Part shown: positions 1 through 10,194 of the stretch, piece by piece | Layout: each line of letters begins with the position of its first letter | How positions within the stretch are numbered: position 1 is the stretch's first letter | Source: Candidatus Levybacteria bacterium RIFCSPHIGHO2_02_FULL_40_18 | Lineage (GTDB): Bacteria > Patescibacteriota > Microgenomatia > Levybacterales > GWA1-39-11 | Assembly: GCA_001782235.1 (NCBI GenBank) | Contig: MFOC01000007.1 | Location: 251,909 to 315,908, forward strand | Direction of reading: 5' to 3' | DNA: 64,000 nt | Translations under genes and position numbers: made by a program | The notes under the pieces: generated by a model | The model's input: only the letters and a program-made list of their open reading frames with translations | Database searches by the model: none | What the model was told of the DNA's origin: nothing

Positions 1-532
1 TATCTTTCGCCTTTATGGCGGACAACTTGACTGCTCTCTCCAAAGCAGGGCCGAAGTTCTCGCCTAGCATGTCGTTCCAGCCAGGAGTGGAGTTGTTTGC
101 GTCTCCGGACACGTCCTTGCTGCTTGCGCAGCGGTATTTGAAGCAGACGTTATAGAAGTTGCGCATGGCAGTTTCGGACTGGTTGAGGGTCCAATAAGCC
201 GTCACCGCCAACTCAATCTGCACTCCCGATTTGGTGGTCGCCGTAATCAGCTGAGTGCGGTCGCCTACAACGTTTCCGTTGGCATCCGTCACTGTCCCGT
301 CGCTGACGATGTAGTTCCGCGAGTTGCACGGAATAAAGGAGACGTCCTCGTTGTCGCCCTTGTCGACCTTCTGACCCTGGTACTCAATCCGGTGCAGTTT
401 GGAGTCGCGGCCTTTCGCGCCGTCTCCGACTACGAAGGCACAACTTGCGGTTGTAGTCGACGTATCAGTGCAGGCGAGGAGAAGCAGAGCAACTGCAAGT
501 ACAGCCACTACCACTATCGCTGACCTAAGCAT
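1..532 (-). CDS. putative lipoprotein, N-terminal portion; gene runs off window start
   Basis: Minus-strand frame open from the ATG (530-532) to position 1. GGAGGA sits 5 nt upstream of the ATG. N-terminus MLRSAIVVVAVLAVALLLLAC is a signal peptide plus lipobox Cys. About 60% GC. Not in the ORF track because there is no in-window stop. Confidence 0.5.
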   Translation of the reverse strand, partial: MLRSAIVVVAVLAVALLLLACTDTSTTTASCAFVVGDGAKGRDSKLHRIEYQGQKVDKGDNEDVSFIPCNSRNYIVSDGTVTDANGNVVGDRTQLITATTKSGVQIELAVTAYWTLNQSETAMRNFYNVCFKYRCASSKDVSGDANNSTPGWNDMLGENFGPALERAVKLSAIKAKD

Positions 533-558
533 TGTATTCCTCCTTCGACTATTCGTGC

Positions 559-1860
559 TTAGTTCTGCACGGCAGGAACAGACCTGGCGATTTCCAGAGG
601 CGCCTCCTGAGCGGCTTCTCGGGCAAGTTCGAGCACGTGCTCGATCTGCGCCTGGTTTACCCTCTGGGTAGCCGCATCGATTACCTCCTTGCCCGTGATC
701 ATCGCCTGCTCGAGCTCGAGCCTCTTCTGCTGACCGAGTTCGATAGCCTGAACGATTCCGTCGGCCTGCGCCGCCAGAGACTCGCTCCATGCCACTACGG
801 TGCGGGGGTCCAGAGCCGGCGTCGCCAGCGCGTTTGCTATCATCGGCACGGTGGCCTTTGCAGCATTTGCGAACAAGGTCAGCACCTGGTTGTAGGTATC
901 CTCGACGGCCGCGTTGAACTGTAGCGCCTGTTCGGCGTCACCCAACGTGAGCCAGATAAGGATAGTTCCTTTCATGGTCGGGATCGTGATGTCGACGGTC
1001 TGGTCAATCCGGGCTGACAGACCCACTTGGACTACTCGCATGTTGCGAGTCTGCGGGGCCATAGCCCATGCAACCCAGAGCCGTCCCTTGAACGCGATGA
1101 TCCTGTTCTCAAGAAGCGTGACGAGCTCCGAAATCCGAGCCTGCTCTTCGCCGCCGCGGTCTCCCATGTTGGAATCGCCGACAACGATGCTGTCAGCCTG
1201 CTCGGCAGCCAAGTCGCGGATGATCTCCATGACGCCGATCTTGTAGATCAGCTTGTTGATCTCCTGCTCATTGAGCTTATAGAACTCGTCGTAGTAGGCT
1301 ACATTCCTGAGCAGCTGCTCCTGTTTGCCATCGAGTTTTTCGATGACCCAGTCGCACTGCTCCTCGAGTCCGCGGATATCGTCGAGGAACTCCTCGAGGA
1401 ATGTCCTGCCGAGACGGAAGATGCCCAGGAAGCGGCCCTTAGCCTTCTTGTACTTCTCGAGTGCTTTGGGGTCGCTGGGGTCGTACCTGCGGCCAATACC
1501 GCGCATACGCCGGGAAAGATCCCTCATGGCGTCACTCAGCTCCGGAATGTCGATAGGGTGGCGCTCGCTAAGCATCCGGTCGTTTAACCGGTTGATTGAC
1601 TCGAGCGCATCGTTTCCGAAGACCGCCAACACTTGAGTGTTGGACAACATCTTCGGTAGGACATCCGTAGCTTCTGCCTGTGCCCTGACGAGAGTGTCGC
1701 CTTCCAGTAATTGCCGGCAAACGAGCAGTTCTCGCTTCTGAGGGCTAACAGACAGAGCAGAAAGCTCTGTTACTTGCGAAGTCGGTCGGGGCTCCGCCGG
1801 AATGGTGGCCGCAAACTGCGGGGACACTACGATGGTGGGTTGGGTCGGCTGTTGAGTCAT
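559..1860 (-). CDS. TelA-like toxic anion resistance family protein
   Basis: 433-aa ORF in the high-GC block. Predicted to be mostly helical, and its length and pattern are typical of TelA/KlaA (YaaN-like) proteins. Assigned from recalled family resemblance, not from an alignment. Confidence 0.5.
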   Translation of the reverse strand: MTQQPTQPTIVVSPQFAATIPAEPRPTSQVTELSALSVSPQKRELLVCRQLLEGDTLVRAQAEATDVLPKMLSNTQVLAVFGNDALESINRLNDRMLSERHPIDIPELSDAMRDLSRRMRGIGRRYDPSDPKALEKYKKAKGRFLGIFRLGRTFLEEFLDDIRGLEEQCDWVIEKLDGKQEQLLRNVAYYDEFYKLNEQEINKLIYKIGVMEIIRDLAAEQADSIVVGDSNMGDRGGEEQARISELVTLLENRIIAFKGRLWVAWAMAPQTRNMRVVQVGLSARIDQTVDITIPTMKGTILIWLTLGDAEQALQFNAAVEDTYNQVLTLFANAAKATVPMIANALATPALDPRTVVAWSESLAAQADGIVQAIELGQQKRLELEQAMITGKEVIDAATQRVNQAQIEHVLELAREAAQEAPLEIARSVPAVQN

Positions 1861-1883
1861 GTCGGTACTCCTTTAGCTTGTGG

Positions 1884-2879
1884 TCAGCGATATCGCTGGG
1901 CCTGCAGAATGTTGGTGTTAACCCTGAAGTCAAAAAGATCTTCGGCACTGCCGCGCCTGATCGACTCCAGGACGTACTCGGAGAAGTCGGTGATTGACTC
2001 CTTTCCCCTCTGTAGCTCTTCGCCCCAATTGGTGTAGTAGCGCGGATTGTCCTGGACATCGGCATACTTAGCCAGGACTTGAGCGACCTCATTCAAGCGG
2101 TCTCTAAAGAAAAGGGAATCCCTCTTCTTATCCTTACTACTTGAGGAGAAGTATCTCTCGATATCCACACACAGCTGGTAGAGCGCATCTTTGAGCTCCG
2201 AGTCTTTGATCTGCCAGCGTTCTCTTACGATTTTCGCGAGCAGTTCCTTGACTTGGTCGGGTGCTCTGAAGCGCGTTTTTTCCGTGCTAGACTCTGTTTC
2301 CTGGCTGGCGACAACCGCAAGAACTGCGATGACGACGAGCACAATGACGACAGCAATGCCTAGCCATACGAACCACGACAGACCTCCTTTCTCAGGTGAA
2401 TCGAGCGGCGGAGGGTTTAATTGGGGATTCTCCCTCTGCCAGATGTGCATGTTCTGCACGAACGTGCCCAGTGTCGTCACCGGATCGTTAGAGACGCTTC
2501 TTGCGCGCCTCATTTGATCGGCAGCAACTCCTGCAGGTAGAGTTGGCGCATATCCTACCACATTGTTGCCTACCGCAAGTCCGATGATTCGCCGGTTTCC
2601 CAGCTCTTCGGACAGGCGACTTGCAATTGTGGTGATATCCGCTCCAAGACTTGATTCTGCCGCAGCCGGTAGCATAACCAAGACGATGTTGTCGTCTTTG
2701 TTGAGCCTTTCCTGCAATTTGCCGGCTGTGTCTTTGTCAGTCCCTTCGGTGCCGGGAGCCACGTAGACGGGCGCATTCTTTAAAGCCTGCGCTGCGTCTG
2801 TGATGTAGTCGGCAAAGACTACGTGGGGCGCTAAAAGAGCCAGAACTGCTAAAGCAACGGCTTTAGCTATGTGCTTCAT
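1884..2879 (-). CDS. membrane protein adjacent to TelA: signal peptide, exported domain, one TM helix, cytoplasmic C-terminal domain
   Basis: 331-aa ORF with N-terminal signal-like segment (AVALAVLALLAPHVVFA) and a central hydrophobic helix (WFVWLGIAVVIVLVVIAVLAVVA). Tightly linked to the TelA-like gene on the same strand. A possible XpaC/TPM-like relationship is not verified. Confidence 0.4.
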   Translation of the reverse strand: MKHIAKAVALAVLALLAPHVVFADYITDAAQALKNAPVYVAPGTEGTDKDTAGKLQERLNKDDNIVLVMLPAAAESSLGADITTIASRLSEELGNRRIIGLAVGNNVVGYAPTLPAGVAADQMRRARSVSNDPVTTLGTFVQNMHIWQRENPQLNPPPLDSPEKGGLSWFVWLGIAVVIVLVVIAVLAVVASQETESSTEKTRFRAPDQVKELLAKIVRERWQIKDSELKDALYQLCVDIERYFSSSSKDKKRDSLFFRDRLNEVAQVLAKYADVQDNPRYYTNWGEELQRGKESITDFSEYVLESIRRGSAEDLFDFRVNTNILQAQRYR

Positions 2880-3340
2880 CCCGTCCTCTCCTTTCTCTTC
2901 GGCTTTTGCCGAAAGCTAGGGTCTTTTGTTCGAAGAAATCTTCGATCAAGGACCTAAGTTCATACTTAATGCGATTCTGCTTCTCCTTAATTTGCTATCC
3001 ATTTTTAATCTTTCTCCTTGTTTTTTATTTGCCTAAGGCAATCCGATCCCGATTTCTGTCAGGACGAGAGTGCCGTAGGCAAGATTCGCTCTAGCTTTTG
3101 AGCGAAGTTCAAGAAGATTCCACAGTCAAATTGTCAAAGAGCAACTTTAAGCGATTTAAACTTAAGCAATTTTAGTTTTGGCGCTTAAAGACAAATATAT
3201 TGTATTTAAAATCAGCAAGCTTTTCAGTTCTTTTGAGAACTATTGAACGTGCTGACAGTAACAGTGGATTATATCCAAAACAGGATAAAGAATCAAATAT
3301 TATAGGGTAATACTTTTACTTTCCGGGGGATTTCTGTAAG

Positions 3341-3369
3341 TTGACCTATTGTTTGGGTTCTGTTAAAAT
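3341..3369 (+). promoter_or_regulatory. sigma70-like promoter upstream of nusA leader
   Basis: TTGACC (3341-3346), 17-nt spacer, then TGT-TAAAAT extended -10 (3361-3369). Confidence 0.5.
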
Positions 3370-3388
3370 TAGGGCGGTTTTGAGTTTA

Positions 3389-3417
3389 AAGAGGTGGTCT
3401 TGGAACCACCTTTTTTA
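3389..3417 (+). terminator. intrinsic terminator-like hairpin in the nusA leader (possible attenuator)
   Basis: AGGTGGT-cttgga-ACCACCT stem-loop followed by TTTTTT, about 20 nt after the predicted transcription start and 40 nt before the nusA ATG. Confidence 0.5.
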
Positions 3418-3455
3418 TACTTAATACATAATACTTAGTACTTAATACTAAAAAT

Positions 3456-4541
3456 ATGGCAGTTGTACAAAGATCGGAATTTGCGTTAGCTTTAAATCAA
3501 ATAGCCTCGGAACGAGGCGTCGATCCTTCTATTGTGCTTGAAACAATGAAGGGCGCAATTTTGGCTGCCTATAGAAAGGATAATGTTGTCCCGGACGAAG
3601 ACCTCGAAAAATATTCGGTTGAATTGAATGAAAACACGGGCGAGACAAAGATTTTAAAAGAAGGAAAGGATGTTACGCCCCCCGGATTTGGAAGAATTGC
3701 AGCCCAAACCGCAAAACAAGTATTGCTTCAGAAAATTCGCGAGCGTGAGAAGGATGCAATAATCGATGAGTATTCAAAGAGAATTGGGACGGTTGTAAAT
3801 GGAATGATCCTGCGATTTATAGGCCCTGCGATTGTTGTTGATATTGGAAAAGCAGAGGCCGTTATTTCGCCGGCTGATAAAATCCTAAACGAACAATACT
3901 TTCTTAATAAAAAGATGTCGGTATATATTAAGGAAATAGATGAGGAGAGGCGGGAGATCATGGTATCAAGATCCGATCCGAGGCTAATTGAAGGGTTACT
4001 CCGACGCGAGGTGCCGGAGGTCAATTCTGGCGCAGTTACCATCAAAAAAGTTGTTCGCGAGCCGGGAAATCGAGCAAAAATTGCAGTTTATTCGGAGCAG
4101 TCAGGTATTGATCCGGTTGGGTCATGCGTTGGGCAAAAAGGTGTTCGTATTCAGGCAGTAATCGATGCTTTGGACGGCCTAGAGAAGATTGATGTGATTC
4201 AGTGGAATCCTGATCCTCTGAAGTTTATAACCAACGCGCTTTCTCCTGCAAAAAATCTTACAGTTGAAATTGATGAAGAAACAAAAACCGCAAGAGTGCG
4301 CGCGCCTCGTGAAGAATTGCCGCTAATCATTGGCCGAGAGGGACAGAATGTTCGTTTGGCATCGAAATTGAGTGAATATAATATTGAAGTTGAAGGAGAC
4401 GAATCTATGACAATACAGGATTCGGGGCAAGCTGAGGAGCCCACTGAGGACAAAAAGACAAAAAACGAAACTCCTAAGACTAGAAAATCCAAGAAGACAA
4501 AAACAAAAGAAGATGATTCCGAACAGGGGAAAAGTGAATAA
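3456..4541 (+). CDS. nusA: transcription termination/antitermination factor NusA
   Basis: 361 aa. N-terminal NusA domain followed by S1/KH-like regions. Conserved position upstream of infB. Confidence 0.85.
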   Translation: MAVVQRSEFALALNQIASERGVDPSIVLETMKGAILAAYRKDNVVPDEDLEKYSVELNENTGETKILKEGKDVTPPGFGRIAAQTAKQVLLQKIREREKDAIIDEYSKRIGTVVNGMILRFIGPAIVVDIGKAEAVISPADKILNEQYFLNKKMSVYIKEIDEERREIMVSRSDPRLIEGLLRREVPEVNSGAVTIKKVVREPGNRAKIAVYSEQSGIDPVGSCVGQKGVRIQAVIDALDGLEKIDVIQWNPDPLKFITNALSPAKNLTVEIDEETKTARVRAPREELPLIIGREGQNVRLASKLSEYNIEVEGDESMTIQDSGQAEEPTEDKKTKNETPKTRKSKKTKTKEDDSEQGKSE

Positions 4542-4571
4542 CATGAAAGGTTCGGATTCTAAAAAAATAAT

Positions 4572-6089
4572 ATGGATAAAAAAAACAAAAATCAAACCCT
4601 TCAATCGGACTCAGGGCAAGCAAATGAATTTGCCCCGGTCGTTTCTGTATTAGGTCACGTTGATCACGGCAAAACGAGCCTATTGGATAAAATTCGTGAA
4701 ACTCAGATTGCAGCAAAAGAGCATGGCGGAATTACGCAAAAGATAGGCGCCTCACAAATCGAAATAAAACACGAGGGCAAACTTCGCAAAATCACTTTTA
4801 TCGACACTCCTGGCCATGAGGCCTTCTCAAACATGCGCTCGCAAGGTGTAAATGCCGCGGACATAGCGCTTCTTGTGATCGCGGCAGACGATGGGATAAA
4901 ACCCCAGACAAAAGAGTCAATAGAGAAAATAATTGAGGCAAAGCTCCCTTACATTGTAGTTTTCACAAAAATTGATCTTGAGACCGCAAATATTGAACGG
5001 GTTAAGCAAGGGATCGTGAAGGAAGGAATTTTGCTTGAAGGCCTGGGTGGAAATGTTCCATATATTGGGGTATCTGCAAAAACCGGCGAGAAAATTGGCG
5101 ATCTGCTGGATTTAATAGTACTGGTTTATGATCTTTCAGGAATAAAAAAAGATGAAAATGCGGATTTTGAAAGCGTTGCTGTTGACGCAAAGCTTGATAA
5201 AAAAAGAGGGGTCGTCGCTACAATTGTCGTAAAATCCGGAACTTTAAGAATCGCCGATAAAATATTTGCACATGGGCGTGAAATCGGAAAAGTCAGAGCG
5301 ATTATTGACACATTTGGTAAAAACGTCAAAGAAGCCGCTCCAGGTGACGCGGTCGAGCTTCTTGGCTTATCGGAGGTTCTGCCATCGGGTACAGTTATTT
5401 CAAACAAGCAAATTGAGCCTCAAGTTCGGGAAGAAACCCTTAAGCCGGTTGCTAAAACCCCGGTAGATATTCGCGAGTTTTTAAAATCCCGTGATCAGGA
5501 TTTTGTGCCGATCGTTTTAAAGACGGAAACAAGCGCAGAGATGGAAGCGATCAAAAATTCCCTTCCCTCAACCCCGATTGGATCGGGGTCAAAAATTAAG
5601 GTGATTTATGAAGGTCAGGGAGACGTAGCGGTTTCAGACGTGTTGCTAGCCAAAGATTTTTCCGCATTAATTATCGGATTTAACGTAGGTATAAATTCCG
5701 ACGCAAAGTTTTTGGCAGAGAGCGAACATGTTTTTAACAAGTCCTATCGAGTTATCTATGAACTGCTTGACGAGCTTTCGCAATTAATTGTTGCAGTAGG
5801 TACAAAGGAACAGGAAAAAGAATTAGGTAGAGGAACAATTCTTGCCTCGTTTTTAGGAACAACTGGTCCAATTTTAGGTACAAAAGTAACTTTTGGGAGG
5901 CTTGCTGTCGGAGATAAAATAAGGATAGCTCGTGGTGAAAAAGTGCTAGGAGAGGCTTCGATAATATCAATAAAAAAAGGGAAAGAAGACATAAAATTGG
6001 CCTCAAAGAATGACGAATGCGGCATAATGATAAGGCCTGAAGTTGACTTTGCAAAAGACGATGCTATAATAGCCTATAGCAAGACGTAG
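4572..6089 (+). CDS. infB: translation initiation factor IF-2 (short form)
   Basis: GTPase G1 motif [14 protein letters not shown] and DTPGHEAF. Follows nusA. Confidence 0.85.
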   Translation: MDKKNKNQTLQSDSGQANEFAPVVSVLGHVDHGKTSLLDKIRETQIAAKEHGGITQKIGASQIEIKHEGKLRKITFIDTPGHEAFSNMRSQGVNAADIALLVIAADDGIKPQTKESIEKIIEAKLPYIVVFTKIDLETANIERVKQGIVKEGILLEGLGGNVPYIGVSAKTGEKIGDLLDLIVLVYDLSGIKKDENADFESVAVDAKLDKKRGVVATIVVKSGTLRIADKIFAHGREIGKVRAIIDTFGKNVKEAAPGDAVELLGLSEVLPSGTVISNKQIEPQVREETLKPVAKTPVDIREFLKSRDQDFVPIVLKTETSAEMEAIKNSLPSTPIGSGSKIKVIYEGQGDVAVSDVLLAKDFSALIIGFNVGINSDAKFLAESEHVFNKSYRVIYELLDELSQLIVAVGTKEQEKELGRGTILASFLGTTGPILGTKVTFGRLAVGDKIRIARGEKVLGEASIISIKKGKEDIKLASKNDECGIMIRPEVDFAKDDAIIAYSKT

Positions 6090-6167
6090 GAAGTTAGGAC
6101 TAAAGGAATTAGTGATTAAGATTTTGACTGATTACTTTAGTCTTTTATTCTTTTAATCTTAAGAGAT

Positions 6168-7151
6168 ATGGGTAGTTCATTAATTACAAACCAAAAAGAG
6201 AAAATTCGGGAGCTTATTGATTCTTCCGAAAGTATCGGTATTATAGTTTCGGAAAATCAAAATATTGATACGGTGGCCGCAGCGCTCGGTCTGTATCTTT
6301 CTCTCTCATCAAACGGCAAGAATGTTCAAATTGTTTCAAAAAAAGAACCGACAGTCGAGGTTTCAAGCCTGGTTGGGGTTGACAAAATTTCAAAGACTTT
6401 TGCCGGTAACATAAAGATCTTAACAATCTCGGTTCCATATCGGGAGGGCGAGATAGAAAAAGTCTCATACAATATTGAAGACACAAGACTTAACGTTAAT
6501 TTGTTCGCCGAAACTTCAGGAATCACATTCAATGAAAGCGAAATTCAATATATAAGAAAAGGCTCGGCTCCTTCTCTTGTGATAACTTTAGGAGTAATAG
6601 ATGAATCTGAGCTTCTGGGACTTTTGGATCTTAAAAGTGTTAAAAGTATTCATATTGATCGAAATCCCTTGAATGCAATGCAGGGAGACGTTGTAATTAT
6701 TGATCCTTCCTTTTCTTCATTATCTGAAATTGTAACAGAGCTTATAACTGAGCTTAATCTTGGCCATGATATTGATTCGTTCCAGAATTTAATGGATGGT
6801 ATAACCTACGCGACCCGCAATTTCACTCTTCCCGCGACAAGTCCGTTTGCATTTGAAATGGCAGGATTTTTACTTCAGAACGGAGCAAGGAGAAAAGAAA
6901 AAGGCGAAAGACGTGAGGAGCGCGAAAGAAACTTCCCCCAAGAATCGCATTTCCTTCAGACAAGAGGTGCCGGCAGATCTGATTTTAGACAAAATCGTCC
7001 GCAGGCAGGAAGACCTCAAACTGCCCAAGATCCATTCGCGAGCACTAAAAATATTGAGCAAGTTGAGAGTGTTGAAGGTACTGGAACCGGCGAAATTCCG
7101 GAAGATTGGTTTCTTCCTAAAGTCTTCAAAGGCTCCCGAAAAGGCAACTAA
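6168..7151 (+). CDS. DHH-domain (NrnA-like) protein with degenerate catalytic motifs and an Arg/Glu-rich C-terminal tail
   Basis: 327 aa. Layout resembles the DHH domain of NrnA, but the DHH and PDxD positions are replaced (IDR, SENQNIDT). No DHHA1 domain. Low-complexity RRKEKGERREERER tail. Sits in the operon position where Actinobacteria carry a DHH phosphoesterase. Confidence 0.35.
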   Translation: MGSSLITNQKEKIRELIDSSESIGIIVSENQNIDTVAAALGLYLSLSSNGKNVQIVSKKEPTVEVSSLVGVDKISKTFAGNIKILTISVPYREGEIEKVSYNIEDTRLNVNLFAETSGITFNESEIQYIRKGSAPSLVITLGVIDESELLGLLDLKSVKSIHIDRNPLNAMQGDVVIIDPSFSSLSEIVTELITELNLGHDIDSFQNLMDGITYATRNFTLPATSPFAFEMAGFLLQNGARRKEKGERREERERNFPQESHFLQTRGAGRSDFRQNRPQAGRPQTAQDPFASTKNIEQVESVEGTGTGEIPEDWFLPKVFKGSRKGN

Positions 7152-7157
7152 CCCAAG

Positions 7158-7301
7158 ATAATAGTTATAAGAAAATAGAAATTAGTAATAGAAAATGCCT
7201 GCCTGCCGGCAGGCAGGGAGAATAGAAAATAGTTAAACAAAAAAAACAAATTTCCAATTTCTAATTTCCATTACTATTTTCCAATATCTAACAACCAATT
7301 T
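7158..7301. repeat. MITE-like inverted-repeat element, copy A (carries the nested 20-nt palindrome)
   Basis: Shares the arms GAAAATAG..GAAATTAGTAATGGAAA and CCAATTTCCAATATCTAATTTCCATTAC with copies at 18014, 41558 and 44491. Confidence 0.6.
7198..7217. repeat. 20-nt perfect GC-rich palindrome CCTGCCTGCCGGCAGGCAGG (copy 1)
   Basis: Identical to 10195-10214. Here it sits inside the MITE-like element. Confidence 0.8.
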
Positions 7302-7325
7302 CTGATTGAATTTTGGATTTGATTT

Positions 7326-7334
7326 TGGTAAAAT
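7326..7334 (+). promoter_or_regulatory. extended -10 (TGG-TAAAAT) upstream of rpsO
   Basis: TGnTAAAAT motif that recurs before many genes in this window. An 88-nt leader with direct repeats follows. Confidence 0.4.
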
Positions 7335-7421
7335 ACAAACTCAGCGTCTAGTAAGGAGCGTCTAGGGTCTAGTTTAAATAAAAACTGAACGCTAAACGCT
7401 AGCTACTAAACGCTTCGAAAT

Positions 7422-7691
7422 ATGGCTTTGAATGCTGATGAAAAGAAAAAAATAATTTCCGAGTTTGCAACAGTTAAGGGCGATACAGGAAGTCCCGAGG
7501 TTCAAATTGCACTTTTGACTCAGCAAGTTCAAAAACTTACAGAACATTTGAAGCTCCATCAAAAAGATACTCATTCAAGGCGCGGACTCCTTAACATGCT
7601 GTCAAAAAGAAGAAGATTATTTAACTTCTTAATCAGAATGGATAAAGATCGGGGAGAAGGAATTGCAAAGAAAGTAGGAATGGCCGCGTAG
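7422..7691 (+). CDS. rpsO: 30S ribosomal protein S15
   Basis: 89 aa, typical S15 sequence. Conserved rpsO-pnp pairing. Confidence 0.9.
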   Translation: MALNADEKKKIISEFATVKGDTGSPEVQIALLTQQVQKLTEHLKLHQKDTHSRRGLLNMLSKRRRLFNFLIRMDKDRGEGIAKKVGMAA

Positions 7692-7782
7692 ATAGATCAT
7701 AGATCATAGATTTTAGATCTTAGATCATAGTAAATACAAAAACTAAATCTAAAAAGAGCCACAAAAGTCCCGAAAAAAATTA

Positions 7783-10194
7783 ATGAAAAGATCGTCAAAA
7801 ACGCTTCAAATTAACGGAACAACCTTAACACTTGAAACCGGCGTACTTGCACAACAAGCAACGGCTTCGGTTTTGGGCAGGATGGGAGATACAATGGTGG
7901 TTGCAACCGTTGTAATGGGTCGTGAAGATTCAACTTTAGGATATTTTCCTCTCAGTGTTGAGTATGTAGAAAGGCTTTATGCTGGAGGAAGAATAAAGGG
8001 GAGCCGTTGGGTAAAGCGTGAAGGAAGGCCGTCTGATGAAGCAATTCTAACGGCACGAATGATTGACCGTTCAATTCGCCCGCTTTTCCCAAAAGAACTT
8101 AAAAAGGATGTTCAGGTAGTTATAACCGTATTGTCTGTGGATCAGGAGAATAAACCCGATATATTGGCAGTAAACACTACCGTGGCAGCGCTGGCGATAT
8201 CAAAAATTCCGTGGGGGGGACCGATCGGAGCAACAAGGATAGGATTAGTATCAAAAGGTGAACAGCAGGAATTCATTGTGAATCCGACAGCATCAGAGGA
8301 GGAGCTATTGGAGCTCGATCTTATTGTTTCGTCCCGGCGCGACCGAACAGTTATGCTTGAGGCAGGAGCAAAACAAATAAGAGAGGATTTGGTTGAGCAG
8401 GGTATTAAAATGGCAGGAGAGTGGAACAATAAAATTGTTGACTTAATTGAACAATGGGCTGAAGAGGTTGGGGAGAAAAAGATAGAACTTCCAAAAGATG
8501 AGAAAGCGGAGGAAGCAAGACTTCTAATTGAGAAGTCTTACAAAGACCGTATGCAAAAAATTATTTCGGAGGGTATAACTCGCGAAGTTGCCGGGGTTTT
8601 TGATGAAATTATTGACGAAATTGAGGAGCTTGAAAAAGAAACTATTGAGCCCCGCGAAAAAATTGCCGAAGCCGTAGATTACGTATTCAAAAAGGCTGTT
8701 CGAGACATGATTCTTTCCGAAGGAAAAAGACCGGACGGAAGGAAACTTGATGAGATTCGCCCGGTAACAGCCGCAGTTGGCGTTTTGCCAAGAACACACG
8801 GTTCGGCAATTTTTTCAAGGGGCGAAACTCAATCTTTAACAGTTGCGACACTGGGTCCCTCTTCTTTGGAGCAGCTTATTGAAGGGCCGGAAGGGGAAGA
8901 AACTAAGCGATATATGCACCATTACTCCTTTCCCCCATACTCGGTTGGCGAGGTGGGAAGGCTTGGATCGCCTAACAGACGTGAGGTTGGGCACGGAGCG
9001 CTTGCCGAACGCGCGCTTGAACCTGTTATACCGCCTGTCTCGACATTTCCATATGCAATCCGTGTGGTATCTGAAATTATGTCTTCAAATGGTTCAACAT
9101 CTCAGGCTGCAGTTTGCGGCTCCACATTATCCCTGATGGACGCAGGTGTTCCTTTAGTTGCGCCGGTTGCAGGTATCGCGGTAGGACTAATGACCTCTGG
9201 TGAGAAATATGCTTTACTCACTGACATTATTGGTCTTGAGGATTTTTCAGGAGACATGGACTTTAAAGTTGCGGGGACAGAGAAAGGAATCACGGCAATA
9301 CAGCTTGATGTAAAAATTGAAGGATTAACAGAACAAATGATCTCAGAAACTTTAGTGGTGGCGCGTAAGGCAAGACTTGAAGTTCTTGATAAGATGCTTT
9401 CCGTTATTCCTGAGTCAAGAAAAGATGTTTCAAAATTTGCTCCAAAGATTAAGACCATTCAAATTAATCCTGAAAAAATAGGGGATGTCATAGGATCAGG
9501 GGGCAAGACTATTCGAAACATCTCGACTCAAACTGGCGCAACTGTAGATGTTGAGGAGGATGGGACCGTGTCTATTTCCTCATTGGATGAGGAGGCGGTT
9601 GAGAAGGCTGCTCATTGGGTGGACCTAATCACGCGGGAACTTCAAAAAGGAGAGGTTTTTGAAGGAACGGTTAAAAGAATTGTTAATTTTGGGGCATTTG
9701 TTGAAATAGTTCCGGGCAAAGAAGGGTTGGTACATGTGTCAGAAATGGCACCTGAGTACGTTAAAGATCCGCATGATGTTGTTGAGATAGGTCAAAAAGT
9801 TAAGGTAAACGTAAAAGAAATTGATGACGTAGGGAGGATTAATCTTTCAATGTTGTTCGGCGAAAGACCGGCAAGACCTGAAGGCAGTCCTGAGGGGTCG
9901 GACCGAGCCTTTGGCGAGGGAGACCGGCTGCGAGAGGAGCGAGACAGCGGTGGGAGCCGAACATTTCGACCTCGTGAAGAAAGATTCGAACGAGGCGAAA
10001 GACCGCCAAGAAGGAGCTTCGGAGGTCCGAGATCCTTCGATAGGACTCCCTTCGAAACTCAGGGCAGGCAGGGCAAGCGAGAAGGCGCAAGACCATTCAG
10101 ACCAGGCGGAAGACCATTTAGACGCGGTTCAAGACCTAGCGGTCCCGCGCCGTTTGATTCCCTCCGTCCAGGAGGGACCCGTACCCGAAGATAA
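7783..10194 (+). CDS. pnp: polyribonucleotide nucleotidyltransferase (PNPase) with Arg/Gly-rich C-terminal extension
   Basis: 803 aa with two RNase PH-like domains, KH and S1. A C-terminal ~110-aa RG/RP-rich tail is encoded by a GC-rich segment (9860-10190). Confidence 0.9.
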   Translation: MKRSSKTLQINGTTLTLETGVLAQQATASVLGRMGDTMVVATVVMGREDSTLGYFPLSVEYVERLYAGGRIKGSRWVKREGRPSDEAILTARMIDRSIRPLFPKELKKDVQVVITVLSVDQENKPDILAVNTTVAALAISKIPWGGPIGATRIGLVSKGEQQEFIVNPTASEEELLELDLIVSSRRDRTVMLEAGAKQIREDLVEQGIKMAGEWNNKIVDLIEQWAEEVGEKKIELPKDEKAEEARLLIEKSYKDRMQKIISEGITREVAGVFDEIIDEIEELEKETIEPREKIAEAVDYVFKKAVRDMILSEGKRPDGRKLDEIRPVTAAVGVLPRTHGSAIFSRGETQSLTVATLGPSSLEQLIEGPEGEETKRYMHHYSFPPYSVGEVGRLGSPNRREVGHGALAERALEPVIPPVSTFPYAIRVVSEIMSSNGSTSQAAVCGSTLSLMDAGVPLVAPVAGIAVGLMTSGEKYALLTDIIGLEDFSGDMDFKVAGTEKGITAIQLDVKIEGLTEQMISETLVVARKARLEVLDKMLSVIPESRKDVSKFAPKIKTIQINPEKIGDVIGSGGKTIRNISTQTGATVDVEEDGTVSISSLDEEAVEKAAHWVDLITRELQKGEVFEGTVKRIVNFGAFVEIVPGKEGLVHVSEMAPEYVKDPHDVVEIGQKVKVNVKEIDDVGRINLSMLFGERPARPEGSPEGSDRAFGEGDRLREERDSGGSRTFRPREERFERGERPPRRSFGGPRSFDRTPFETQGRQGKREGARPFRPGGRPFRRGSRPSGPAPFDSLRPGGTRTRR

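What the first reader, a model, noticed from the sequence alone, without database searches (positions are those of the whole stretch)
1..2900. Abrupt compositional discontinuity: ~60% GC three-gene block (lipoprotein, TelA-like, membrane protein) joined to an AT-rich genome
GC content, codon usage (GC3-rich) and protein composition of 1-2900 differ sharply from the remaining 61 kb. The switch occurs within an intergenic region (about 2880-3000). The block encodes a TelA-family protein with two co-oriented envelope proteins, a module associated in the literature with toxic-anion and membrane stress responses. It is either a very recent horizontal acquisition from a high-GC donor or a chimeric assembly join. 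No clearly TelA-associated partner is recognisable, so the operon content itself is atypical.
Basis: partly seen in the sequence, partly recalled or inferred. Interest (0 to 1): 0.6.

Follow-up and report, generated by a model that had tools for sequence, protein, structure and literature searches.

The report
GC-rich TelA envelope cassette in Levybacteria
The GC-rich block is a real, self-contained three-gene membrane-stress operon shared by many ultra-small (Patescibacteria) bacteria. It is richer in G+C than every genome in which it was examined, so its composition is a lasting property of the cassette and not the mark of a recent import or an assembly error.

Summary
Window 1-2900 has 55.8% GC against 40.7% elsewhere. 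GC3 is 0.60-0.73 against 0.348±0.035 for the host, and the tetranucleotide distance is 2.5 times that of any other chunk.

It is not a chimera: five fetched contigs from independent assemblies carry the identical junction.

The island is one operon of about 3.9 kb, cut by the window edge. It has its own conserved AT-rich promoter and 5'UTR (window about 2880-3310). The three genes are:
- a membrane protein with an ectodomain, one TM helix and a weakly XpaC-like cytoplasmic domain;
- TelA;
- a lipoprotein with an SPFH fold.

So the classical TelA partner is probably present, and the layout parallels firmicute xpaC-telA.

The same cassette occurs in Levybacteria, Collierbacteria, Saccharibacteria and others, each time in a different genomic context. 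Gene-by-gene similarities are mosaic, and synonymous divergence is lower than in a neighbouring host gene, which points to horizontal exchange.

The main surprise is that cassette GC3 exceeds host GC3 in 19 of 19 loci: logit(cassette) = 0.95 + 0.98·logit(host), r = 0.89. A non-stationary substitution fit gives an equilibrium GC3 near 0.65 and rejects decay toward 0.35. The host's highly expressed genes show no such bias.

"Very recent import from a high-GC donor" is therefore not supported. A persistent GC-ward fixation bias fits better, but its cause is unresolved.

The parts
2..532 (-). 5' part (177 of 321 codons) of the third cassette gene: a lipoprotein with an SPFH (stomatin/prohibitin/flotillin/HflK-C) fold. 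The window edge cuts the gene.
   Evidence: Translation; full gene at L001 11329-12294. It has a signal peptide, a Cys21 that is invariant in 37 homologues, and eight further conserved Cys. The AF2 model has pLDDT 86 and pTM 0.75. Foldseek against PDB gives 40 hits at E<=1e-3, all SPFH proteins or the related major vault protein. Band_7 is sub-threshold in 8/37 members, best E 3e-4. No Pfam or NCBIfam family reaches threshold.
533..558 (-). 26-nt spacer with a GGAGG ribosome-binding site ahead of the lipoprotein start codon
   Evidence: Read directly from the sequence.
559..1860 (-). TelA-family protein, 433 aa, with no hydrophobic segment evident
   Evidence: PF05816, 87.1 bits (cut-off 30), E 1.5e-24, residues 73-389. 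GC3 0.73. 44 homologues all carry PF05816.
1884..2879 (-). First cassette gene, 331 aa: signal peptide, extracytoplasmic alpha/beta domain (residues about 25-150), one TM helix (169-192), cytoplasmic helical domain (205-320) that is weakly XpaC-like
   Evidence: AF2 model with pLDDT 84. PF10112 gives E 0.018 here, matches 10/34 family members (best 0.001), and gives 22 bits, E 1.5e-4, in the L020 orthologue. hhalign against three firmicute XpaC gives E 0.0055 but probability only 6.7%. The ectodomain resembles PDB 2kpt (probability 1.0, E 0.12, TM-score 0.59 normalised to the target).
2880..3267 (-). AT-rich 5' untranslated leader of the cassette (about 390 nt, GC 0.38).
   Evidence: GC profile. 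GC from promoter to start codon is 0.376. The RBS AAGGAGAGGA lies just upstream of the ATG at 2879.
3226..3241 (-). Palindrome/hairpin AGTTCTCAAAAGAACT in the leader, conserved between two genomes
   Evidence: Alignment of L001 and L006 upstream regions. Function not tested.
3249..3263 (-). Conserved box TGTTACTGTCAGCAC just downstream of the -10 element (TGTT-N6/7-GCAC in all cassettes compared). Possible operator.
   Evidence: The resemblance to a Crp/FNR half-site pattern is my own reading and was not tested.
3268..3307 (-). Cassette promoter: CCCTATAATA box, -35 TTGATT (3296-3291), 17-nt spacer, -10 TATAAT (3273-3268)
   Evidence: Promoter scan, 10/12 match. The same arrangement (CCTATAG(G) ... 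TTGAC(A/T)-17-TATA(A/C)T) is conserved upstream of the cassette in L006, L009, L047, L048, L049 and L050, which lie in unrelated genomic contexts.

Best explanation
Window 1-2900 is the larger part of a genuine, chromosomally integrated operon of about 3.9 kb in a Candidatus Levybacteria genome. The order is: own sigma70-type promoter and long AT-rich leader, membrane protein (ectodomain, TM helix, XpaC-like cytoplasmic domain), TelA, SPFH-fold lipoprotein, terminator.

Shown:
- The cassette is a conserved unit in many Patescibacteria, always in this gene order and each time in a different neighbourhood.
- It is exchanged and recombined between lineages.

Inferred function: a trans-membrane envelope-integrity module. 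The lipid-anchored SPFH protein and the ectodomain act outside the membrane. The XpaC-like domain recruits cytoplasmic TelA inside. By analogy with the firmicute xpaC-telA pair and SPFH cages, it would organise or protect membrane microdomains under envelope stress.

Its GC-richness is not a donor fingerprint. The cassette sits about one logit unit of GC3 above whatever genome carries it, and its synonymous substitutions are at compositional equilibrium near GC3 0.65. A weak, persistent GC-ward fixation bias specific to these coding sequences therefore best explains the discontinuity. The bias could be GC-biased gene conversion at a frequently recombining cassette, or selection on synonymous sites. 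Which of the two operates is not resolved.
For: Real and not chimeric: the identical TelA protein is on at least 23 contigs. All five places shown, from independent ENA, NCBI and JGI assemblies, have the same nusA junction and 100% identity over the region. Both flanks are host-like.

Conserved unit:
- The three-gene order is present in 11 of the first 14 loci and in later ones.
- The promoter is conserved across contexts.
- Source names are Levybacteria, Collierbacteria, WWE3, Saccharibacteria and Patescibacteria group.

Function:
- TelA is above the Pfam threshold.
- The lipoprotein has an SPFH fold.
- The first gene gives recurrent weak XpaC matches and occupies the xpaC position.
- xpaC-yaaN belongs to the sigmaW envelope-stress regulon together with the flotillin operons (PMC3498285).
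- XpaC/TelA affect daptomycin binding and phospholipid microdomains (PMC6811118).
- A Listeria telA mutant is nisin-sensitive (cited in PMC12791056).

Exchange:
- Between L001 and L006 the cassette has dS 0.5-0.7, while the adjacent Crp gene is saturated.
- Codon bias matches what GC3 alone predicts (Nc 47-55).
- Gene-wise identities are discordant. For example, L047 against L048 gives 87% for the membrane protein but 69% for TelA.

Persistent GC surplus:
- Cassette GC3 exceeds host GC3 in 19/19 loci over host GC3 0.25-0.86. The slope is 0.98, the intercept 0.95, r 0.89, p 3e-7. Three more distant two-gene loci also show it.
- A non-stationary fit gives an equilibrium GC3 of 0.65 and disfavours 0.35 by 5.5 lnL units.
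- L009 and L048 share Epimerase-GT2-SecA synteny and have saturated synonymous sites, yet both keep the surplus.
- Host ribosomal, EF and RNAP genes have GC3s 0.331, the same as other genes at 0.341.
- Firmicute xpaC-telA shows no surplus.
Against: - The loci are not phylogenetically independent, and host GC3 was estimated from ORFs in at most 10-kb flanks.
- The stationarity fit is a two-state, three-taxon model on a recombining cassette.
- Offsets range from 0.45 to 1.98 logits. L018 has GC3 0.85 in a host of 0.44, as expected if some copies are fresh imports from GC-richer relatives.
- High-GC hosts of the family exist (L020, L036, L037), so a higher-GC reservoir is not excluded.
- The XpaC and TPM-like assignments are below curated thresholds.
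- No expression, interaction or phenotype data exist for any Patescibacteria copy.
- Biased gene conversion should also raise GC in the conserved leader, which is AT-rich.
Confidence: 0.62

Rival explanations
1. Serial or recent horizontal acquisition from a GC-richer reservoir with incomplete amelioration. This is the first reader's main reading, generalised: each low-GC genome received the cassette from GC-richer organisms, and it has not yet decayed to host composition.
For: - Codon and amino-acid composition look like a high-GC organism.
- Family members exist in 57-70% GC contexts, and the deep branches have GC3 0.87-0.96.
- L018 and L041 carry GC3 0.81-0.85 in hosts of 0.44-0.50.
- The cassette is younger than the neighbouring Crp gene in L001/L006.
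- The contexts differ in every genome.
Against: - None of the 14 clade-A loci with usable flanks lies in a host as GC-rich as the cassette.
- The surplus persists in hosts of GC3 0.67-0.86, and the relation to host GC3 has slope 1.
- There is no GC-to-AT excess on the L001 and L006 branches (parsimony counts). Decay toward the host's 0.35 is disfavoured by 5.5 lnL units.
- Amino-acid divergence within the clade is down to 48% and synonymous sites are saturated, yet amelioration is never complete.
- The promoter and leader that travel with the cassette are AT-rich.
- The closest relative in a genuinely high-GC context is only 42-45% identical.
Confidence: 0.25
2. Assembly or binning chimera: a high-GC contig end was wrongly joined to a low-GC Levybacteria contig at about 2880-3000.
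For: Only the abruptness of the switch and its position near the window edge.
Against: - The same junction is present in all five places shown, from independent assemblies made with different assemblers and samples, on contigs up to 290 kb.
- The five fetched copies are 100% identical over the junction region.
- Host-like sequence resumes on the far side of the island.
- The same sharp island recurs in more than 15 other genomes.
Confidence: 0.01
3. Ordinary translational selection: the cassette is very highly expressed, and GC-ending codons are the translationally optimal ones in these organisms.
For: NNC codons are strongly preferred in the cassette (TTC 0.83, AAC 0.78, CAC 1.0). The offset is consistent across hosts.
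Against: - Ribosomal-protein, EF-Tu/G and RNA-polymerase genes of the same genome have GC3s 0.331, indistinguishable from other genes at 0.341, and they prefer NNT and NNA.
- Cassette Nc (47-55) is about what GC3 alone predicts.
- A stress-specific codon programme, in which these codons are read better under stress, is not excluded. It would fall under the best explanation's selection branch.
Confidence: 0.07

Closest known systems
xpaC-telA (xpaC-yaaN) operon of Bacillota (B. subtilis, S. aureus, Listeria lmo1966-67, E. faecium)
   Same: A membrane-anchored protein with a helical cytoplasmic domain lies immediately upstream of, and co-oriented with, a TelA-family gene. It has an envelope-stress role: sigmaW regulon, and nisin and daptomycin phenotypes (PMC3498285, PMC6811118, PMC12791056).
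   Different: - The first gene here carries a signal peptide and an extracytoplasmic alpha/beta domain of about 125 residues, with one TM helix, instead of XpaC's N-terminal TM helices.
- It matches PF10112 only below threshold.
- A third gene, the SPFH lipoprotein, is part of the unit.
- TelA is only 21-26% identical to firmicute TelA.
- Firmicute copies show no GC3 surplus.
SPFH/Band 7 membrane scaffolds (HflK/C, QmcA-YbbJ, flotillins, stomatin, prohibitin)
   Same: The lipoprotein model superposes on SPFH domains plus the following long helices of these proteins. B. subtilis flotillin operons are co-regulated with xpaC-yaaN (PMC3498285).
   Different: - It is anchored by a lipid-modified Cys instead of a TM segment or hairpin.
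- It has eight conserved cysteines.
- No NfeD partner was seen beside the cassette in the gene lists.
- Sequence is below the Band_7 threshold.
- It forms a compact separate family of only about 209 clusters at 50% identity among 1.84 billion proteins.
Classical genomic islands and amelioration (Lawrence and Ochman model; from my own knowledge)
   Same: A sharp compositional discontinuity, variable genomic location and evidence of transfer.
   Different: - No integrase, tRNA or meaningful flanking repeats.
- The island is GC-richer than the host, where most islands are AT-richer.
- The deviation tracks host composition with slope 1 and shows no decay.
GC-biased gene conversion in bacteria (Lassalle et al. 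2015; from my own knowledge)
   Same: Recombining genes have raised GC3 independently of expression. The cassette shows mosaic recombination and an offset of B about 1.
   Different: The effect here (about 30 points of GC3) is far larger than the few points reported genome-wide. It is confined to three coding sequences, while the co-transferred leader stays AT-rich.

Membership tests
TelA / toxic anion resistance protein (PF05816) | Match to the Pfam model above the gathering score | tested here: met
   87.1 bits against a cut-off of 30, E 1.5e-24, profile positions 11-321 of 332. All 44 homologues carry PF05816.
[quoted passage not shown] | Match to the Pfam model above the gathering score (29.8 bits) | tested here: not met
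   15.5 bits, E 0.018 for the window protein. 10/34 family members match weakly (best E 0.001). The best orthologue gives 22.2 bits. hhalign against three firmicute XpaC gives E 0.0055 with probability 6.7%. This is consistent with remote homology but is not membership.
[quoted passage not shown] | Membrane-anchored protein encoded immediately upstream of telA on the same strand | tested here: met
   23-nt spacer to telA in the window. Same arrangement in B. subtilis, S. aureus and Cytobacillus. TM helix followed by a cytoplasmic helical bundle in the model.
SPFH / Band 7 (PF01145) | SPFH fold | tested here: met
   Foldseek against PDB: 40 matches at E<=1e-3, all stomatin, prohibitin, HflK/C, flotillin, erlin, QmcA or major vault protein, probability 0.99-1.00. 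Model pLDDT 86.
SPFH / Band 7 (PF01145) | Sequence match above the Pfam gathering score (23.6 bits) | tested here: not met
   13.2 bits, E 0.096. 8/37 members match weakly, best E 3e-4.
Bacterial lipoprotein | Signal peptide ending in a lipobox with an invariant Cys | tested here: inconclusive
   N-terminal hydrophobic helix followed by LLAC. Cys21 is invariant in 37 sequences. No dedicated predictor was available, and the -2 residue (Leu) is non-canonical.
TPM domain (PF04536) | Fold or sequence match of the ectodomain | tested here: inconclusive
   No Pfam hit even at E 10. Foldseek hit to PDB 2kpt (cg2496 N-terminal domain): probability 1.0, E 0.12, rmsd 2.9 over 125 columns. That 2kpt is a TPM domain is from my memory only.
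Classical horizontally acquired genomic island | Composition deviating from the host | tested here: met
Classical horizontally acquired genomic island | Mobility hallmarks: integrase or transposase, tRNA target, flanking direct repeats | tested here: not met
   No tRNA in window 1-8000. No such genes in the gene lists of any locus next to the cassette. Only a 14-nt inverted repeat, confined to this species. Only 31%-identity hits on viral contigs.
Classical horizontally acquired genomic island | Compositional decay toward the host (amelioration) | tested here: not met
   AT-to-GC and GC-to-AT changes are about equal on the terminal branches, and the fitted equilibrium GC3 is 0.65. The surplus is retained in the syntenic, synonymously saturated pair L009/L048.
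Classical horizontally acquired genomic island | Empty site in close relatives | not testable with these tools
Exact-protein look-ups return only the same species.
Assembly chimera | Junction unique to one assembly | tested here: not met
   The junction is present in all five places shown from independent assemblies (of at least 23 contigs with the identical TelA), with 100% identity across the five fetched.
Known anti-phage defence systems (PADLOC) | Match of any cassette protein to a defence model | tested here: not met
   No hits for the three proteins.

The most novel reading that the evidence does not exclude
The cassette's three coding sequences are held about one logit unit of GC3 above whatever Patescibacteria genome carries them (host GC3 0.25-0.86). 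The cause would be a gene-specific GC-ward fixation bias acting in situ, either unusually strong biased gene conversion at a recombination-prone cassette or selection for GC-ending codons in a stress operon. The island would then be a standing compositional feature and not a transfer scar. That would make it a natural, replicated reporter of non-mutational forces on base composition in ultra-small bacteria.
Probability: 0.5. Interest if true: 0.75.

Novelty: new variant of a known kind. Interest (0 to 1): 0.62.

Why it matters
There are three reasons.

1. Method. A sharp GC step is routinely read as recent transfer or mis-assembly. Here a replicated comparison across more than 19 genomes shows that a cassette can carry a stable compositional offset. 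Such islands can therefore mislead island finders and composition-based binners. One 4.3-kb copy (L012) is in a bin labelled Chloroflexota, although the contig's own AT-rich stretch hints that the bin assignment may be wrong.

2. Evolution. The slope-1, offset-1 relation gives a clean, quantifiable case for testing biased gene conversion against synonymous selection in bacteria with tiny genomes.

3. Biology. It defines an uncharacterised envelope module that is widespread in Patescibacteria: an XpaC-like protein with an ectodomain, TelA, and a new compact family of lipid-anchored SPFH proteins. These organisms live attached to host cells and depend on scavenged lipids (from my own knowledge), so membrane organisation and protection are central to their lifestyle.

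Tried and rejected
- Profile searches of PDB sequences with the TelA and membrane-protein alignments found nothing meaningful.
- NCBIfam gave no hit for any of the three proteins.
- A 14-nt inverted repeat flanks the island (L001 8729-8742 and 12361-12374; the first arm is window 3119-3132). It occurs only in this species and is one of nine comparable chance pairs, so I rejected it as terminal repeats.
- There is no tRNA nearby. No Rfam family reaches threshold in the leader.
- PADLOC gave nothing for the cassette. The Crp neighbour matched only through its shared cNMP-binding domain.
- Phage carriage as vector or reservoir: only two hits at 31% identity on viral contigs.
- Within-species polymorphism for a frequency-spectrum test: the cassette is invariant in the five fetched contigs. 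All differences lie more than 2 kb beyond the cassette, at L001 positions above 14 kb.
- Strong codon selection as the reason for the low dS is rejected, because Nc is about what GC3 predicts.
- The P0007 contig had no DNA on file, but the same contig was obtained as L013.


Full report

Yes. GC is 0.558 in window 1-2900 and 0.407 in 3001-64000. The first three 1-kb windows give 0.574, 0.568 and 0.518, and no later window exceeds 0.476. In 200-nt windows the fall from about 0.54 to about 0.37 occurs between 2800 and 3200.

The region holds three co-oriented minus-strand genes with 23-26 nt spacers and good ribosome-binding sites:
- the start of a lipoprotein, 2-532;
- a TelA protein, 559-1860;
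- a 331-aa membrane protein, 1884-2879.

Their GC3 values are 0.69, 0.73 and 0.60. The 57 host ORFs average 0.348 ± 0.035 with a maximum of 0.439. The tetranucleotide distance from the rest of the window is 0.571, against 0.15-0.23 for all other chunks. The proteins are Ala-rich (11.2% against 6.6%) and poor in Lys and Ile.

**2. Not an assembly artefact, and the contig continues.**

The exact TelA protein is on at least 23 contigs. All five places shown carry the same neighbours, with nusA-infB-rpsO-pnp on one side:
- ENA ERZ28563803 scaffold_62, 290 kb;
- two MEGAHIT-style ENA contigs;
- NCBI GCA_001782635.1 MFPG01000010.1;
- JGI 3300025164.

The junction region is 100% identical in the five fetched copies, and the window matches the NCBI record exactly. 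NCBI names the organism Candidatus Levybacteria bacterium RIFCSPHIGHO2_02_FULL_4….

Beyond the window's left end the lipoprotein gene finishes (321 aa) and a terminator-like hairpin follows. GC then drops back to 0.35-0.39 at a Crp-like cNMP-binding regulator gene. The island is therefore about 3.4 kb of coding sequence with host-like DNA on both sides.

**3. What the genes are.**

TelA is a clear family member: PF05816, 87 bits.

The lipoprotein has no Pfam or NCBIfam family, but an alignment-based AlphaFold model is confident (pLDDT 86, pTM 0.75).
- Foldseek against PDB returns 40 matches at E ≤ 1e-3. All are SPFH proteins (stomatin, prohibitin, HflK/C, flotillin, erlin, QmcA) or the related major vault protein.
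- Eight of 37 homologues also touch Band_7 weakly.
- Cys21 after the signal helix is invariant and eight more cysteines are conserved. This fits a lipid-anchored, disulfide-bonded extracytoplasmic protein.
- A full HMM search of 1.84 billion representatives finds only 209 clusters. It is a compact, undescribed family.

The 331-aa protein models well (pLDDT 84) as signal peptide, alpha/beta ectodomain (25-150), one TM helix (169-192) and a cytoplasmic helical bundle.
- The bundle gives sub-threshold matches to a single family, PF10112 (XpaC), always in the same register: E 0.018 here, 10 of 34 homologues, and 22 bits in L020.
- hhalign gives a weak match to three firmicute XpaC proteins over the FFY…LD…L.KY…P motif.
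- In B. subtilis, S. aureus and Cytobacillus, xpaC lies directly upstream of telA, as this gene does.
- The ectodomain resembles PDB 2kpt. I recall that structure as a TPM domain, but this is memory only.

The partner is probably a remodelled XpaC, and the third gene is an SPFH scaffold.

**4. The cassette elsewhere.**

Searches with the three proteins, a species-representative genome scan, a metagenome scan and contig look-ups gave about 35 loci.
- The order membrane protein, TelA, lipoprotein is conserved in nearly all of them.
- Named sources are Levybacteria (several), Collierbacteria, WWE3, Patescibacteria group and Saccharibacteria/Saccharimonadales.
- A few labels (Gammaproteobacteria, Nanoarchaeia, Chloroflexota) are doubtful.
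- Variants exist. A Levybacteria genome has the membrane protein and the lipoprotein without TelA (L045). Three Saccharibacteria have a 147-aa protein that aligns only to the C-terminal cytoplasmic domain of the membrane protein, plus TelA, with no lipoprotein.
- The flanking genes differ in almost every genome.
- The cassette brings its own promoter region, CCTATAG(G) … TTGAC(A/T)-17-TATA(A/C)T … TGTT-N6/7-GCAC. This is conserved in L001, L006, L009 and L047-L050. In the window it lies at 3249-3307 on the minus strand, about 390 nt upstream of the start codon.
- The conserved unit therefore extends to about 3310, and its leader is AT-rich (GC 0.38).

**5. Horizontal exchange.**

Between this genome (L001) and its closest cassette relative (L006, 87% TelA identity, co-resident aquifer samples), the three genes have dS 0.5-0.7. 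Their synonymous third-position identity is 0.67-0.74. The adjacent Crp orthologue (65% identical) is saturated at 0.37.

Codon bias is only what GC3 predicts (Nc 47-55), so synonymous constraint does not explain the low dS. The cassette copies share a more recent ancestor than their neighbour genes do.

Gene-by-gene similarities are also discordant:
- L047 against L048: 87% for the membrane protein but 69% for TelA.
- L050 against L001: 74% for the lipoprotein but 64% for TelA.
- L046: 48% for TelA but 62% for the lipoprotein.

This indicates recombination among cassette variants. No integrase, tRNA or meaningful terminal repeats are present. Viral contigs hold only 31%-identity relatives.

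**6. Why is it GC-rich? The unexpected part.**

The cassette forms a GC-rich island in every low-GC genome examined.
- With host GC3 measured from flanking ORFs, cassette GC3 exceeds host GC3 in 19 of 19 loci, over host GC3 0.25-0.86.
- The fit is logit(cassette) = 0.95 + 0.98·logit(host), r = 0.89, p = 3e-7.
- Three distant two-gene loci also show a positive offset. Relatives at 32% identity or less, and firmicute xpaC-telA, do not.

A donor fingerprint predicts no dependence on host composition, and offsets that vanish or reverse in GC-rich hosts. A constant GC-ward bias added to each host's mutation bias predicts exactly slope 1.

Three further points support in-situ maintenance.

(i) A two-state non-stationary likelihood fit was made to synonymous third positions for (L001, L006 | outgroup).
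- It gives an equilibrium GC3 of 0.65 for the terminal branches.
- It disfavours the host-like value of 0.35 by 5.5 lnL units (about p 0.001).
- Parsimony counts of AT-to-GC against GC-to-AT changes are about 1:1, where pure amelioration from 0.9 predicts about 1:7.

(ii) L009 and L048 share Epimerase-GT2-SecA synteny beside the cassette. Synonymous sites are saturated in both host and cassette genes. Both copies still keep GC3 0.54-0.65 against about 0.40 in the host.

(iii) The host's ribosomal-protein, EF-Tu/G and RNA-polymerase genes have GC3s 0.331, against 0.341 for other genes. They prefer NNT and NNA, while the cassette prefers NNC and NNG. Ordinary translational selection is therefore unlikely.

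**7. Caveats.**
- The loci are related to one another.
- Host GC3 rests on ORF calls in short flanks.
- The membrane-protein gene with outgroup L050 gives the opposite signal (equilibrium 0.40), probably because of mosaicism.
- Offsets vary from 0.45 to 1.98, and L018 and L041 look like fresh imports of very GC-rich alleles.
- GC-rich hosts of the family exist (L020, L036, L037). The neighbour-joining tree places GC3 of about 0.9 on the deep branches.
- A higher-GC reservoir with repeated transfer therefore remains a live rival. I put it at about 0.25.
- Biased gene conversion and synonymous selection cannot be separated here. The AT-rich leader argues mildly against a purely DNA-level force.

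**8. How it most likely works (function; inferred).**

The topology places the SPFH lipoprotein and the ectodomain outside the membrane, and the XpaC-like bundle and TelA inside. Evidence from Bacillota:
- xpaC-yaaN belongs to the core sigmaW envelope-stress regulon, together with the two flotillin (SPFH) operons and pspA (PMC3498285).
- XpaC controls daptomycin binding and phospholipid microdomain distribution in a TelA-dependent way (PMC6811118).
- A Listeria telA mutant is sensitised to nisin and tellurite (Collins et al. 2010, as cited in PMC12791056).

I therefore propose a trans-membrane module that organises or protects membrane microdomains under envelope stress. Here the SPFH component is hard-wired into the operon. 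The neighbouring Crp-like regulator (L001 and L006, with an unrelated one near L048) and the conserved TGTT…GCAC box suggest regulated expression. None of this was tested.

**9. Verdict.**
- The chimera reading is rejected.
- Horizontal mobility is supported.
- "Very recent import from a high-GC donor" is not supported.
- "No TelA partner" is incorrect.

The module is a new variant of the xpaC-telA kind, joined to a new SPFH-lipoprotein family. Its persistent, host-tracking GC3 surplus is the finding most worth following up.

Noticed in passing
L045 8889-11023 (Levybacteria JACROF010000002.1): A two-gene variant of the cassette. The membrane protein (48% identical) is directly followed by the SPFH lipoprotein (50%), with no TelA between them. 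It is still GC-elevated (46-56% against about 38%).
   Followed up: partly
L019 9473-11272, L021 9502-11275, L022 9421-11200 (Saccharibacteria): In these distant relatives TelA is preceded by a 147-aa protein that aligns only to the C-terminal cytoplasmic domain of the membrane protein. No lipoprotein homologue was detected in these loci.
   Followed up: partly
L001 12486-13151 (just beyond the window's left end); L006 12491-13153; L048 7526-8221: A Crp-like cNMP-binding/HTH regulator lies next to the cassette in two genomes. The two copies are 65% identical with saturated synonymous sites and host-like GC3. An unrelated Crp-family gene lies two genes upstream of the cassette in a third genome. 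The conserved TGTT-N6/7-GCAC box at the cassette promoter could be its operator.
   Followed up: partly
window 3341-3418 (+ strand): A promoter-like site (TTGACC-17-TG-TAAAAT) is followed by a perfect hairpin and T-run (GGTGGTcttggaACCACCTTTTTT) just upstream of nusA (start 3456). It looks like a leader or attenuator, or the end of a small RNA. Only weak sub-threshold Rfam hits were found.
   Followed up: partly
window 9900-10194 (PNPase C-terminus): The 803-aa PNPase ends in an Arg/Gly/Pro/Glu-rich low-complexity tail (…RPARPEGSPEGSDRAFGEGDRLREERDSGGSRTFRPREERFERGERPPRR…). This produces the only other local GC bump in the window (0.45-0.48; 0.57 in a 500-nt window of L001).
   Followed up: no
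window 4572-6089: IF2 is only 505 aa, so it lacks a long N-terminal region.
   Followed up: no
L009/L017 (OZ246414.1, 915-kb chromosome labelled 'uncultured Gammaproteobacteria'); L006/L011 (DATBWR010000011.1 labelled 'Candidatus Nanoarchaeia archaeon'); L012 (4.3-kb contig in a 'Chloroflexota' bin): The taxonomic labels look unreliable.
- The 915-kb genome carries the cassette beside a HemQ-type (coproporphyrin-dependent) haem pathway and cytochrome oxidase genes.
- The contig labelled as an archaeon encodes bacterial L19 and RNase HII.
- The short contig in the Chloroflexota bin is essentially the GC-rich cassette plus an AT-rich stretch. This suggests composition-based mis-binning.
   Followed up: no
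L001 15000-21302 compared with L002 and L003: All differences between the compared contigs of this species cluster in the S8 peptidase/VWA/LTD gene region. L002 has 119 differences in one kb bin. The 14 kb that includes the cassette is invariant.
   Followed up: partly
L001 13211-13881; L009 12585-12830: Toxin-antitoxin genes lie close to the cassette in two unrelated contexts: a PIN gene plus a 78-aa gene in L001, and a PhdYeFM antitoxin in L009. This hints that the cassette sits in variable genome regions.
   Followed up: no
window 3119-3132 and L001 12361-12374: A 14-nt inverted repeat (AATTTGACTGTGGA / TCCACAGTCAAGTT) brackets the island. It is found only in this species and is probably chance.
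   Followed up: yes
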